Shown here: positions 5,446 through 63,726 of the stretch, piece by piece | Numbering within the stretch: the stretch's first letter is position 1 | How the letters are laid out: each line of letters begins with the position of its first letter | Origin: Eledone cirrhosa | Lineage: Eukaryota | DNA length: 64,000 bases | Reading direction: 5' to 3' | Assembly (NCBI GenBank): GCA_964016885.1 | Contig: OZ024740.1 | Coordinates: 171,802,001-171,866,000 of the forward strand | The notes under the pieces: model-generated | What the model saw: only the letters and a program-made list of their open reading frames with translations | The model's database searches: none | What the model was told of the DNA's origin: nothing | Translations under genes and position numbers: made by a program

Positions 5446-6135
5446 TTCGTTTCTCAATTTGTTTAGTAAGATTCTTTATCTGAAAACTTGTGTTGAAACC
5501 GATATTGTTATACTTTGGTAGGGTCATGTTGCCAATAAGAAACACACGCACCAGTTGTTTTACTCAATTTATTATAAATTAAATTTATAAATTTAAGAAT
5601 TTATAAATTTCCGGTTGGTTGGTTAGTTCCACAACCGGACGGTTGTTCATATATTGTCAAAGTTCTTTCGTCACGCATTCTGTGACCTCTTCAGTGACTG
5701 GGAATTCTTTTCTTTGATTTGTGCCTCTCCTTTGTTCTGTCCTACGCCATCTTATTTTTGTGTGTGTTGTGTGCTTAGTTTGCGCATGTGTTACATCCGG
5801 GTGTCTGTGTGTGTTTTTATTTATTTATTTATTTGTTTATTTACATGTTACTGGTTGGTTGTTTGTTCTATGTGTGTGTGTTTCCATTTGGTCCTTAATT
5901 GTAAGTTATGATGTTGCTATTCCATTTATGTTTTCTATTTAATTTTGGTTGGAGTTCATTTATGTTTATTGCCTCTGTGATTTATCTAAACATTGCGTCT
6001 TTTTTGTGTGTAGATTCTATTTTTATTTTATTTCTATGAAATAAAAATAGAAATAAAAATAGAATCATTGTCTAAACATTGCGTCTTTTCTGTATGTAGA
6101 TTCTATCTTTATTTTTATTTCTATGAAATAAAAAT
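5446..6135 (-). mobile_element. Penelope-like pLTR/3' tail remnant carrying a hammerhead ribozyme
   Basis: HHR core at 5656-5698 (-), AC-rich tail on the minus strand, flanked by microsatellites. Part of it recurs as an inverted pair at 54300-54630. Confidence 0.6.
5656..5698 (-). ncRNA. Minimal type I hammerhead ribozyme
   Basis: Minus strand: gtca CTGAAGA g gtcac-agaatgc-gtgac GAAA gaac TT^ tgac (stem I gtca/tgac, stem II, CUU site). Confidence 0.75.
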
Positions 6136-9100
6136 ACACACACACACACACACACACACACATATATATATATATATATATATATATATATATATATATA
6201 TATATAGATACATGTATATATATATACATACATGTATATATATATACATACATGTATATATATATACATACTTATATATATATACATACATATATATATA
6301 CATACATATATATATATACATATATATATATATACATACATGTATATATATATACATACATGTATATATATATATAGACATATATATATATATACATATA
6401 TATATACATACATGTATATATATATACATACATATATATATATACATACATATATATATATATACATACATGTATATATATATACATACACATATATATA
6501 TATATATACATATATATATACATACATGTATATATATATATATACATACACATATATATATATACATACATATATATACATATACATACATATATATACA
6601 TACATATATATATATATACATACATATATATACATACATATATATATATATATATATATATACATACACATATATATATATACATACATACACATATATA
6701 TATACATACATATATATACATACATATATATATATATATATATATATATATATACATACATATATATATATATATACATACATACATATATATATATACA
6801 TACATACATATATATATATATACATGCATACACATATATATATATATACATATATAAAATATATATACATGCATATATATACATATATATATATATATAT
6901 ACATACATATATATATATATATATACATACATACATACATATATATATATACATACATATATATATATATATATATACATACATACATACATATATATAT
7001 ATACATACATATATATATATATATATACATACATACATATATATATATATATATATATATATATATATACATACATACATACATACATATATATATATAT
7101 ATATATATATACATACATACATACATACATATATATATATATATATATATACATACATACATATATATATATATATATATATATATATATATATATATAT
7201 ATATACATACATATATATATATATATATATATATATATATATATATACATACATATATATATATATACATACATACATATTTATATACATATATATATAT
7301 CTATATACATACATACATACATATTTATATACATACATACATACATATATATATATATATACATACATACATATTTATATACATATATATATATATATAC
7401 ATACATACATATTTATATACATACATACATACATATATATATATATATACATACATATTTATATACATACATATATATATATATACATACATACATATTT
7501 ATATACATACATACATATATATATATATATATATATACATACATATTTATATATATACATACATAAATATATATATACATACATACATATTTATATACAT
7601 ACATACATATTTATATACATACATATATATATATATATATATATATATATATATATATATATATATATATATATATATATATATACATACATATATATAC
7701 ATACATATACATACATATACATACATACATATACATACATATATATACATACATATACATACATACATATATATATATATATATACATACATATATATAT
7801 ATACATACATATACATACATACATATACATACATATACATACATACATATATATATATATACATACATATATATATATACATACATATACATACATACAT
7901 ATATATACATACATACATATATATATATGTATATATATATATATATACATATATATATATATATATACATATATATATATATATACACACATATATATAT
8001 ATATACACACATATATATATATATATACATACATACATACATATATATATATATATATATATATATATATATATACATATATATATATATATACACACAT
8101 ATATATATATATATATACATACATACATACATATATATATATATATATATATACATATATATATATACATATATATATATACATATATATATATACATAC
8201 ATATATATACATACATATATATACATACATACATATATATATATACACATATATATATATATACATATATATATATATACATATATATATATATACATAC
8301 ATACATATATATATATACATATATATATATATATATATATATATATATATATATCTATATCCAAAATTAAAATAGATCAAATGAATTTAATCCAAATCAA
8401 AATTATGGGTGTCATATATATATATATACATACACATATATATATATATATATATATACATCTATATATACATACATGTATATATATATACATACACACA
8501 TATATATATATATATACATACACACATATATATATATATATATATATATATATATATATATATATATATATATATATATATACATATATATATACATACA
8601 TGTATATATATATACATACACACACATATATATATATATACATATATATATATATATATATATATACATATATATATATACATATATATATACATACATA
8701 TATATATATATATGCATATATATATATATATATATATATACATATACATACACACACACACACACATATATATATATATATATATATATACATACATATA
8801 TACATACATATATATATATACATACATACATATATATACATGCATACATATATATATATATATATACATACATATATATACATATATATACATACATATA
8901 TATATATATATACATACATATATATATATATATACATACATACATATATATATATATATACATACATACATATATATATATACATACATACATATATATA
9001 TATACATACATACATATATATATACATACATACATATATATACATACATATACATACATACATACATATATATACATACATACATATATATACATACATA

Positions 9101-10078
9101 CATACATACATATATATATATATATATATATATATATATATATATATATATATATACATATATATATATATATATATACATACATACATATTTATATACA
9201 TACATACATGTATATATACATACATATTTATATACATACATATATATATATATATACATACATATATATATATATATACATACATACATATATATATATA
9301 TATACATACATACATATATATATATACATACATACATATATATATATATACATACATACATATATATATACATACATACATATATATACATACATACATA
9401 TACATACATACATACATATATATACATACATACATATATATACATACATACATACATACATATATATATATATATATATATATATATATATATATATATA
9501 TATATATATATATATACATATATATATATATATATATACATACATACATATTTATATACATACATACATGTATATATACATACATATTTATATACATACA
9601 TATATATATATATATAGATACATACATATATATATATACATACATATATATACATACATATACATACATACATATATATATATATATACATACATACATA
9701 TATACATACATATATATACATACATATATATACATACATACATATATATATATATGTATATATATATATATACATATATATATATATATACATACATATA
9801 TATATATATATACATATATATATACATATATATATATACATATATATATATACATACATATATATATATACATATATATATATACATACATATATATATA
9901 CATACATATATATATATACATACATATATATACATACATATATATACATACATATATATATATATACATATATATATATATATACATACATATATATATA
10001 TACATATATATATATATATATACATATATATATATATATACATATATATATATATATATATATATATATATATATATA
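6136..10078. repeat. Compound (TA)n/(TACA)n microsatellite field with an internal duplication
   Basis: Directly visible. It is interrupted at 8358-8415 by a copy of the sequence starting at 10077. Confidence 0.97.
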
Positions 10079-10950
10079 TCCAAAATTAAGATAAATCAAA
10101 TGAATTTAATCCAAATCAAAATTATGGGTGTCATGCCAGAAAGACATGCGCCATATCACCCGCAAAATAAGCTCTAAGATTCTAACGAGTTGCTCCGAGC
10201 ATTTTATAATAACTAGAAATTGATTAACATATAAATAAACATTATTATAAGGTATCTATTTTTGAAGTTCTGGTCAACTTTATGTAGTTACCTACCTAGC
10301 TATGTGTGGTTACACACTTGTAAAAATTATCTCCTGTGATTATTCATGTTTATTTATATGTTAATCAATTTCTAGTTATTATAAAATGCTCGGACCTACT
10401 CGTTAGAGTCTTAGAGCTTATTTTGCGCGTGATATGGCACATGTCTTTCTGGCATGACACACATAATTTTGATTTGGATTAAATTCATTTGATTTATCTT
10501 AATTTTGGATATAGATATATAAATACGGCTCCTTAATTGTAGAGCTAACTCTGTTGAAAGGACTCGACTGCTGTTTCTAGTTGTCAATAACCCTATTCAC
10601 GCCACTGGGACGAAGCTCGTGTGATGTGCGTATTTCTAGTAGATATAGCACGTGTTACTGGCCAGTCGCTGATTTGAACTTGAAGTGTAAACACGGATCG
10701 TTGGAACTTCTTCCTTGTTGAAAATCCAAGTATCCACTTCCGTGGTTTACCATTCGATTAATTGGTGAAATATATTTCTTTAATGGAATATATACAGGAA
10801 AGATTAATCATATTATAAGGCATCTATTTTTGAAGTTCTGGTCAACTTTATTTAGTTACCTACCTAGCTATGTGTGGTTACACGCTTGTAAAAATTATCT
10901 CCTGTGATTATTCATGTATATGTATATGTTAATCGATTTCTAGTTATCAT
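10077..10950. mobile_element. Non-coding element with inverted plus tandem architecture (unit ~567 bp), PLE/retrozyme-like
   Basis: 10077-10242 is the inverted copy of 10346-10512, and 10243-10380 is directly repeated at 10810-10947. Both ends lie in (TA)n. No canonical HHR core found. Confidence 0.65.
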
Positions 10951-62471: not shown

Positions 62472-63155
62472 TAATTGTTTCTACCTTTGGCACAAGGCCA
62501 GCAATTATCCCAGTGTATTTCTGGTACTTTATTTTATCGACCCCGTAAGGATGAAAAGCAAAGTTAACCACGGCGGGATTTGGACTCAGATCATAAAGGG
62601 CCGTAAATCTATGCTACAAAGCAAGGCATCCGACCCTCTACCGAAATATCGGTGACCCGTAGTAGACAATTGGTGAAGGGAAAATGTCTATCTCTTGTTT
62701 GTGTTCCTTTAACATTCTAACACTCATTATCAGTGACCACACAACCTCGTCCCTCTCAATCCATATATATTAATATACATTAATATTAGTTTTGCTCTAA
62801 CATAGTGGATACGTAAATGCATTCGTGAGTTTTATATCGAATAATAATTGTGTCTACTTTTGGCACAAGGCCAGCAATTATCCTAGTGTATTACTGGTGC
62901 TTTATTTTATCGACCCAGTAAGGATGAAAGGCTAAGTTAACCTCGGTGGGATTTGAACTCTAATAATTGTTTCTACTTTGGGCACAAGGCCAGCAATTAC
63001 CCAGTGCATTACTGGTACTTTATTTTATCGACCTCGTAAGGATGAAAGGCAAAGTTAACCTCGGCGGGATTTGAACTCAGATCATAAAGGGCCGTAACAC
63101 TTTGCTGCAAAGCATGACGACCGACCCTCTATCGATACTGCCAATTCACCGCCCT
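62472..63155 (-). mobile_element. Three SINE copies (62472-62655, 62843-62960, 62961-63155)
   Basis: Reverse complement of the 34428 family. Confidence 0.85.
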
Positions 63156-63607
63156 AATAACATTCGATTTGTTTGCAAGCAAAGGGGCTCATTGTGCTAT
63201 TTGTTTTAGACCACAATTGTTACCCTTTTGTTCTAGTGGTGACAGAGAGAAACAATCCATTGCACATTGGGACATAACAAAACAGTCAAAGATAAGTTAA
63301 TCCCTTAGGCGAATTAAACAAATATAGAATAGAATGCATCGCAAAAAAGGCAGAGAACAGTGCGCAAGAGCTTGGCCAAGGAGAAAACATATATAGAAAG
63401 AAGAGAAATAGTAAAACAGAAGAGAAGAGTGTAGTCCAACATGCAGAAAGAGAAGGACACCGAGGTGTAGAAAAGGTAGGAAGAGAGAATAGAGGAAAAC
63501 AGACCGGATGGTGTGATGTCTATTATATAATAGTTTCATATATGTATACATATATATATATATATTATGTAACCTTCTCTCCTTATTTTAATTTATATTC
63601 CTTTGAA

Positions 63608-63726
63608 GTTCCGATGAGCCGCTCTGTTTTTAAATATGTTAATTATTTTCAACTGAACCAGATCAATAATGATATATAGTCATTTGATCCAGAAATATTA
63701 TATGGAATAGCGAAACAATTGTAAAC
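63608..63726 (+). ncRNA. Variant or degenerate hammerhead with long stem II
   Basis: gtt CCGATGA gc cgct...agc GAAA caattg TA^ aac; U4 is replaced by C; palindromic stem III ACAATTGT. Confidence 0.45.

What the first reader, a model, noticed from the sequence alone, without database searches (positions are those of the whole stretch)
5446..63726. Community of unrelated ribozyme-bearing elements sharing a (TA)n niche with Penelope
Seen: about 24 HHR cores in 64 kb. At least four non-coding families with different sequences carry them (419-bp at 12.9 kb, 310-bp at 29-33 kb, 562-bp at 38.4-39.8 kb, ~435-bp at 43.5 kb), as do several Penelope-type pLTRs (5.7, 14.1/16.1, 43.1/43.8, 48.0 kb). Almost all abut (TA)n or (CA)n tracts. 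Established: Penelope-like elements carry minimal HHRs in their pLTRs and are the proposed mobilisers of animal retrozymes. Inference: a microsatellite-targeted system of autonomous PLEs plus many parasitic ribozyme RNAs, which may be linked to the huge TA fields.
Basis: partly seen in the sequence, partly recalled or inferred. Interest (0 to 1): 0.8.

Follow-up and report, generated by a model that had tools for sequence, protein, structure and literature searches.

The report
Ribozyme circles inserted by twin priming
Small non-coding ribozyme repeats in this animal genome sit in (TA)n tracts as two back-to-back multi-copy arms that start at two fixed points, the footprint of Penelope retrotransposons, which likely copy a probably circular RNA many times from both ends of a DNA break.

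Summary
The window has about 24 type I hammerhead cores (strict scan 18, shuffles 0), but 13 belong to one insertion, and the rest of the genome is similar (19 in 390 kb). The four non-coding families are closed tandem units with 1,191-6,079 exact core matches each, i.e. non-LTR retrozymes, not pLTR pieces. Their 3' ends abut (TA)n (54 of 72 arms; background 7%; SINE ends 5-14%).

The new result is the insertion anatomy. Of 52 loci of the 310-bp family, 46 are two inverted multi-copy arms. One arm always ends at site A (~130 nt past the cleavage site) and the other at site B (~165); none is A/A or B/B. Every junction is unique, arm lengths are independent, and both arms share the same variants (38 of 39). 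The other families and the window's own Penelope element follow the same A/B rule. This matches the Penelope 'tail' and its two in-vitro start sites. It points to both target strands priming on one RNA, likely a circle copied repeatedly. Young Hydra-type elements are the best partner candidates. RNA circles, cleavage and the partner are untested, and the link to the 10-kb TA field is unshown.

The parts
2663..12603 (.). 10-kb (TA)n field, interrupted almost only by C on the + strand, holding several element ends
   Evidence: 679 ACA against 30 TGT in 8,003 bases with inserts removed
5446..6000 (-). 3' end/pLTR of a Penelope-like family (Neptune-like by eye); ribozyme at 5694; ends at its site B in (TA)n
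   Evidence: the same pLTR flanks an 852-aa RT+endonuclease ORF on both sides in L233
12604..13231 (+). F419 retrozyme, about 1.45 units, ribozyme at 12931, ends at site B in (TA)n
   Evidence: 6,079 exact core matches
13921..14256 (-). inverted truncated arm of Penelope-like element PLE14, ribozyme at 14120, ends at site B (with about 45-nt tail) in (TA)n
14257..16210 (+). direct arm of PLE14: RT (14317-15075) and GIY-YIG (14924-15682) split by a frameshift; ribozyme at 16057; ends at site A in (TA)n
   Evidence: 883 exact core matches
28892..29825 (-). F310 retrozyme arm A, 3.0 units, 3' end at position 130 against (TA)14
29826..32970 (+). F310 retrozyme arm B, 10.15 units, 3' end at position 170 against (TA)n
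   Evidence: 3,744 exact core matches
38442..39784 (.). F562 retrozyme, two inverted arms (left ends at site B 201, right at site A 79), junction near 39150; long-stem-II ribozymes at 38705 (-) and 39637 (+)
   Evidence: 1,836 exact core matches
43070..43205 (+). degenerate Penelope-type ribozyme end, no other copy among fetched loci
43236..43661 (.). F435 retrozyme: short inverted arm ending at site B plus direct arm with ribozyme at 43485 ending at site A
   Evidence: read by eye against the monomer; 1,191 exact core matches
43679..44290 (-). Penelope-type 3' end, minimal ribozyme at 43796, 3' end in (TA)n; ORF link not shown
   Evidence: 8 copies in fetched loci
   Evidence: 20 hits in 19 loci
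47880..48025 (-). Penelope-type 3' end, ribozyme at 47990, ends in (CA)n
   Evidence: 15 loci
53830..53905 (+). ribozyme element (core at 53838) ending in (TA)n
63583..63715 (+). repeat with a degenerate core near 63613; ribozyme status doubtful

Best explanation
The four non-coding families are non-LTR retrozymes that lie in (TA)n as two inverted multi-copy arms ending at two fixed internal sites, and they are likely inserted by a Penelope-like RT-endonuclease that would prime both cut target strands on one, probably circular, RNA. Shown: fixed ends A and B, strict A/B pairing, unique junctions, independent arm lengths, shared variants, the same rule in a coding Penelope element. Known from others: Penelope RT starts at two internal sites that bound the 'tail', extends both strands and is predicted to be a dimer. 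Inferred steps: tandem transcript, then hammerhead cleavage and ligation to a monomer circle (sometimes a dimer or longer multimer); the endonuclease cuts both strands of (TA)n; one RT starts at A and the other at B; each goes round 1-20 times; the two cDNAs are joined at their 5'-truncated ends. Hydra-type elements are the likeliest donors of the enzyme (inferred).
For: F310: 46 of 52 loci are inverted A/B pairs, 0 A/A or B/B, 4 single-armed, 2 run off the stretch; among the 12 loci chosen by the ribozyme alone, 11 are A/B. 46 of 46 junctions are unique; both arms exceed one unit in 39 of 46; arm A is the longer in 20 of 46, rho 0.17. Arms share all fixed variants in 38 of 39 insertions against 153 of 1,482 cross pairs. 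14 of 46 insertions carry a variant fixed across units and seen in no other insertion. Clear A/B pairs also in F562 (13), F419 (8), F435 (9 loci, two of them near-duplicates) and PLE14 (10) (tallied by eye). Ends lie 79-273 nt past the cleavage site, so the cDNA crosses that site many times. PMC11167929 reports two internal starts bounding the tail and extension of both strands. Hydra-type families have many intact ORFs and ribozymes of the same build as the retrozymes'.
Against: No RNA evidence of any kind was obtained. In 2 of 46 F310 insertions (L195, L204) unit-specific variants are mirrored in register in both arms, which needs a multimeric template; F419 arrays show two-unit (L072, L250) and four-unit periodicity. 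PMC11167929 found uncleaved RNA to be the main substrate and no strand difference in start site in vitro. One F435 insertion is B/B (L125/L126), and eight two-armed loci had an end off both sites (L052, L088, L100, L124, L139, L254, L258, L266). 41 of the 52 F310 loci were found through an A end, so only their second end is informative. Outside the ribozyme, F310 and the Hydra pLTR align weakly (z 3.8). No empty site was seen.
Confidence: 0.65

Rival explanations
1. Same two-primer Penelope mechanism, but the template is an uncleaved linear multimeric transcript of an older array; circles are not needed for most insertions.
For: L204 and L195 mirror unit-specific variants in both arms. Unprocessed RNA dominated in vitro for the anole element. 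Dimer and tetramer periodicity in F419.
Against: 44 of 46 insertions show no mirrored unit-specific variant over 136 overlapping units, although units carry 71 such variants; 14 of 46 have a private variant fixed in all units, which needs a one-unit bottleneck. 5' truncation would shorten arrays each generation, yet arms reach 18-20 units.
Confidence: 0.2
2. The inverted arm arises by self-priming or fold-back on one strand, as proposed for Penelope head-to-head repeats (PMC3846280).
For: Head-to-head topology and shared variants are expected; some junctions have short microhomology or extra bases.
Against: Either arm can be the longer one (20 of 46 against 26 of 46), most junctions are not palindromic, and the copy would have to stop exactly at the other fixed site each time.
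Confidence: 0.07
3. Monomers or pLTR ends insert singly, and arrays grow later by unequal crossover and gene conversion (the model discussed in bioRxiv 10.64898/2026.07.22.740005).
For: A 50-unit, 21-kb F419 array with decaying four-unit periodicity looks like local satellite growth.
Against: It does not explain multi-copy arms on both sides of a unique junction with fixed outer ends; 35 unit-specific variants stay unshared between arms, so conversion is not fast.
Confidence: 0.06
4. Palindromic arrays are long-read or assembly artefacts, or ribozymes lie near (TA)n only because the genome is TA-rich.
For: (TA)n covers 4.5% of the sampled background; there is a scaffold gap at 13386-13585.
Against: The two arms end at different fixed sites with different flanks; TA adjacency is 54 of 72 against 7.2% for random positions and is 3'-specific.
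Confidence: 0.02

Closest known systems
Metazoan non-LTR retrozymes (Cervera and de la Pena 2020, PMC7229834; Li et al. 2026, bioRxiv 10.64898/2026.07.22.740005)
   Same: Short, low-GC, non-coding tandem units, each with a type I hammerhead; Penelope elements proposed as mobilisers; circles proposed as templates for tandem cDNA.
   Different: The parts I read describe no (TA)n targeting, inverted two-armed insertions, fixed priming sites or cephalopod examples. Li et al. discuss arrays as local amplification. One family here has a 50-nt stem II.
Endonuclease-containing Penelope-like elements: inverted arm plus optional 30-40-bp tail (Craig et al. 2021, PMC8557442; Frangieh et al. 2024, PMC11167929)
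   Same: Inverted 5'-truncated arm, tail at one end only, two internal RT starts downstream of the ribozyme, (TA)n bias.
   Different: Here non-coding RNAs carry the signature, tails range from 35 to 122 nt, both arms are multi-unit, and the two starts are strictly paired within one insertion, which the in vitro work did not resolve.
Hydra clade of Penelope-like elements (Craig et al. 2021, section 11)
   Same: RWx and DKT motifs, CxCX5C linker, no CCHH, hammerhead present, (TA)n insertion (read by eye).
   Different: Described as generally under 3 kb; the younger family here has 6-7-kb units with an internal microsatellite field of kilobases and forms near-identical tandems of 2-4 units.
L1 twin priming (recalled, no call)
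   Same: Two target primers give a head-to-head inversion.
   Different: In L1 the second primer anneals at variable places on a linear RNA and the arms barely overlap; here both sites are fixed and both arms repeat the whole unit.

Membership tests
Non-LTR retrozyme | Type I hammerhead in each unit | tested here: met
   for all four families
Non-LTR retrozyme | Head-to-tail tandem units of a few hundred bp | tested here: met
   310, 420-430, 437-444 and 554-571 bp spacings; F562 exceeds the 150-450 bp of PMC7229834 but lies within the 51-972 bp of Li et al.
Non-LTR retrozyme | GC below 50% and non-coding | tested here: met
   GC 0.34-0.38; no ORF of 120 aa or more confined to the units
Non-LTR retrozyme | No LTR, PBS or PPT | not tested
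   units close on themselves, but PBS and PPT were not searched for
Non-LTR retrozyme | Self-cleavage and accumulation as circular RNA | not testable with these tools
   needs bench work or RNA reads
Penelope-type insertion signature | Inverted 5'-truncated arm | tested here: met
   46 of 52 F310 loci; other families
Penelope-type insertion signature | Tail at one end only, i.e. two fixed internal 3' ends | tested here: met
   F310 130/165-172, F419 217/273, F562 79/201, F435 144-149/178-182, PLE14 about 120/165
Penelope-type insertion signature | Microsatellite target | tested here: met
   that the tract pre-existed is only suggested by nested cases
Penelope-like element (window 13.9-16.2 kb) | RT plus C-terminal GIY-YIG, pLTR with hammerhead | tested here: met
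   Pfam RVT_1 and GIY-YIG; this copy is 5'-truncated and frameshifted; clade not tested by phylogeny
   28 local alignments against 7 Penelope-type ends: best real z 3.8, mostly the ribozyme; only the families in hand were tested
Hydra clade (partner candidates, outside the window) | RWx, DKT, CxCX5C linker, no CCHH, hammerhead, (TA)n target | tested here: met
   read by eye; Pfam gave no RT or GIY-YIG hit for the 820-aa protein; no tree was built
Hydra clade (partner candidates, outside the window) | Generally under 3 kb | tested here: not met
   units of 6,054-6,908 bp

The most novel reading that the evidence does not exclude
A Penelope RT dimer primes both strands of a cut (TA)n tract at two fixed sites on a single hammerhead-made RNA circle and copies it by rolling circle. 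This one mechanism would explain the Penelope tail, its inverted arm and retrozyme arrays. Autonomous Hydra-type elements use it themselves as 6-7-kb circles that carry kilobases of (TA)/(TG) repeat, so they seed the landing pads for about 150,000 ribozyme copies.
Probability: 0.4. Interest if true: 0.85.

Novelty: new variant of a known kind. Interest (0 to 1): 0.68.

Why it matters
How Penelope elements make their inverted arm and one-sided tail, and whether they really move animal retrozymes, are open questions stated in the papers read. This genome holds hundreds of very young insertions whose ends, junctions and variants record the reaction. They show that retrozymes carry the Penelope footprint, favour two paired primers over self-priming, and indicate that arrays are born multi-copy. 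The 310-nt unit, its two start sites and intact candidate enzymes make a direct in vitro test possible. If true, it describes a natural rolling-circle, target-primed integrator for small circular RNAs.

Tried and rejected
DNA search of the own genome with the 310-bp unit returned nothing because common words are skipped; patterns were used instead. Rfam listed only miRNA and snoRNA look-alikes of TA repeats in the rows shown. Expression: no RNA holder listed, so no evidence either way. Horizontal transfer: 20 runs under 18 coded organisms hold F310, but X1, X3 and X6 also hold this genome's LINE or SINE at similar low depth, and raw reads X23 of one such organism gave 0 reads (about 1% of the run read). 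Empty-site search by paired flanks and by contigs found no empty allele. The F310 match to the 47990 element (z 6.4) came from an F310-relative fragment in the flank. No shared fold at sites A and B was found across families. A chromosome-number reading was dropped because contigs are not ordered by size. The protein homology search gave 118 unnamed relatives and no clade or host names. A test of C/G strand asymmetry in the TA flanks, meant to ask whether RT adds TA repeats, was not run, so that link stays open. The search of earlier findings returned nothing.
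Full report
SETTING. The window is G000:C1:171,802,001-171,866,000 in a 3.0-Gb animal genome. The host is probably a cephalopod; this rests on recalled SINE resemblance, not on a call.

OBSERVATION. A type I hammerhead scan requiring stems I-III found 18 cores in the window and none in 30 block shuffles. Thirteen lie in one array. The same strict scan found 19 cores in 39 evenly spaced 10-kb stretches (390 kb; 5 shuffles gave 0-1) and 20 in 90 kb beside the window. Scaled up, that is roughly 150,000 genome-wide (Poisson range about 90,000-230,000; the stretches were spaced, not random, and from 15 contigs). 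Exact core patterns matched 3,744 (F310), 6,079 (F419), 1,836 (F562), 1,191 (F435) and 883 (PLE14) times, with 0 in the reversed controls. These are lower bounds. All four non-coding families occur as head-to-tail units, with GC 0.34-0.38 and circular folding z of -5.1 to -7.5.

TA TARGETING. The 3' end of the ribozyme-bearing arm lies at (TA)5 in 17 of 22 F419, 22 of 22 F562 and 15 of 28 F435 arms; the 5' ends do so in 6, 3 and 3. These arms were 72 of the 90 loci fetched, overlapping duplicates left out. Random positions score 7.2%. SINE ends score 11 of 77 and 4 of 77 in a wider window whose background is 9%. In a census of 2,002 TA-abutting ends, 155 of the 496 background ends fell in recurrent clusters and 60 in clusters with an upstream core; the two clusters most frequent in the background have no core. 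The niche is therefore shared by ribozyme-bearing and ribozyme-less elements. Microsatellite bias is already known for Neptune, Naiad and Hydra elements (PMC8557442).

ANATOMY. Counting from the cleavage site, each family has two fixed 3' ends: F310 130 and 165-172, F419 217 and 273, F562 79 and 201, F435 144-149 and 178-182, PLE14 about 120 and 165. Of 52 F310 loci, 46 are two inverted arms with one end at each site, none has the same end twice, 4 are single-armed and 2 run off the fetched stretch. L179 was dropped as overlapping L178, the second insertion in L178 was not counted, and pieces under 0.2 unit were ignored. Forty-one loci were found through an A end; of the 12 found through the ribozyme alone, 11 are A/B. 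All 46 junctions differ, both arms exceed one unit in 39, and arm lengths are uncorrelated. Tallied by eye, clear A/B pairs number 13 in F562, 8 in F419, 9 in F435 (two near-duplicates) and 10 in the coding PLE14 family; one F435 locus is B/B, eight loci have an end off both sites, and one PLE14 pair (L150/L151) was left out as unclear. This is the inverted arm plus one-sided tail drawn for Penelope elements. PMC11167929 showed in vitro that the tail is the stretch between two internal RT start sites, that both target strands are extended, and that the protein is predicted to be a dimer.

TEMPLATE. The two arms carry identical fixed variants in 38 of 39 insertions, against 153 of 1,482 pairs from different insertions. 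Among 46 insertions (432 units, 24 haplotypes), 14 have a variant fixed in at least 80% of units and seen nowhere else. A mutation in one unit can become fixed in all units of a daughter only through a one-unit stage, and the cDNA crosses the cleavage site many times. A ligated monomer is the simplest template (inference). Against a pure monomer model, L195 and L204 mirror unit-specific variants in both arms, and F419 arrays alternate two or four unit types; multimeric templates are used at times. Those two cases also show both primers reading the same molecule, or identical molecules, in register.

PARTNER. Three kinds of coding Penelope element were seen: PLE14 (RT and GIY-YIG), the family of the 5.7-kb end (852-aa ORF between two pLTRs in L233), and two Hydra-type families with many intact ORFs, 41% identical to each other. 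Most retrozyme ribozymes share the Hydra-type build: a mismatch at the base of stem II, a palindromic stem III and sometimes a very long stem II. The other Penelope ends have a bulged base and a short stem II (read by eye). The commonest F310 ribozyme closely resembles that of the 758-aa Hydra family, but whole-unit similarity is weak (z 3.8). PLE14 has the closest end geometry. The partner is unproven. The younger Hydra family forms its own near-identical tandems of 6-7-kb units with internal microsatellite fields, which suggests the same mechanism in an autonomous element.

TA FIELD. The 10-kb field is strand-biased (679 ACA against 30 TGT) and holds only a few element ends. Nothing here shows that the elements built it. 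Nested cases show insertion into TA left by earlier elements; no empty site was recovered.

PRIOR WORK. Li et al. 2026: parts 1-3 of 5 read (introduction to discussion), supplements closed. PMC11167929: parts 1-2 of 4. PMC8557442: passages and sections 11 and 15. PMC7229834: passages and Discussion; its Supplementary Figure S9 on tandem cDNA was not seen and may bear on novelty. PMC3846280 and PMC6765202: passages. Others: listings only. Searches showed no paper describing cephalopod retrozymes or paired A/B inverted arrays; subscription journals and Repbase are outside the library. Retrozymes, their link to Penelope elements, the circle-to-tandem idea and the tail are known. New, as far as searched, are the insertion footprint on retrozymes, the strict pairing of the two start sites, and the evidence that arrays are born multi-copy.

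VERDICT. Real, and a new variant of a known kind: interest 0.68. The two-primer, mostly circular-template mechanism is given 0.65; the boldest reading 0.4.

Noticed in passing
G000 C1:183.73-183.76 Mb, C1:420.37-420.40 Mb, C2:170.42-170.45 Mb and five more (L320-L339): A very young Hydra-type Penelope family (820-aa ORF) forms tandems of 6-7-kb units that each hold kilobases of (TA)/(TG) repeat. Units differ by 0-4 changes per 2.4 kb within an insertion and 5-107 between insertions, and TA-run lengths are insertion-specific. Its ribozyme has a stem II of about 120 nt.
   Followed up: partly
L329-L332: Two of the eight printed TA-joined ends of that family run into (TA)n with C interruptions on the sense strand, the same pattern as the window's 10-kb field; read by eye only.
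   Followed up: no
L171:4016-4202 and many loci: The most frequent TA-abutting ends (61 and 52 of 2,002) belong to a short two-armed element with no hammerhead core within 330 nt; possibly Naiad-related (guess).
   Followed up: partly
window 2449-2655: About 80 bp of otherwise unique DNA is duplicated in inverted orientation around (TA)22 at the start of the TA field, as expected from fold-back at a break in (TA)n.
   Followed up: no
window 10081-10960 and 8365-8410: Another two-armed, unit-repeating element inside the TA field; a relative in L224 carries a hammerhead.
   Followed up: partly
window 22867-26157 (-): LINE with an intact 1,096-aa endonuclease-RT ORF.
   Followed up: no
window 57880-58060, 61060-61170, 62470-63080, 63716-63915; L037: Abundant tRNA-headed SINE resembling cephalopod SINEs (recalled); some copies are in 184-bp tandems.
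   Followed up: partly
L204: Both arms of one F310 insertion switch haplotype after their two outermost units, in register.
   Followed up: yes
G000 C1:51.77-51.80 Mb (L251-L253): At least 50 F419 units over 21 kb with four-unit periodicity, an incipient ribozyme satellite.
   Followed up: partly
L034, L039, L183, L199: F310 copies nested in the TA tracts of earlier elements, including the internal microsatellite field of the Hydra-type element.
   Followed up: partly
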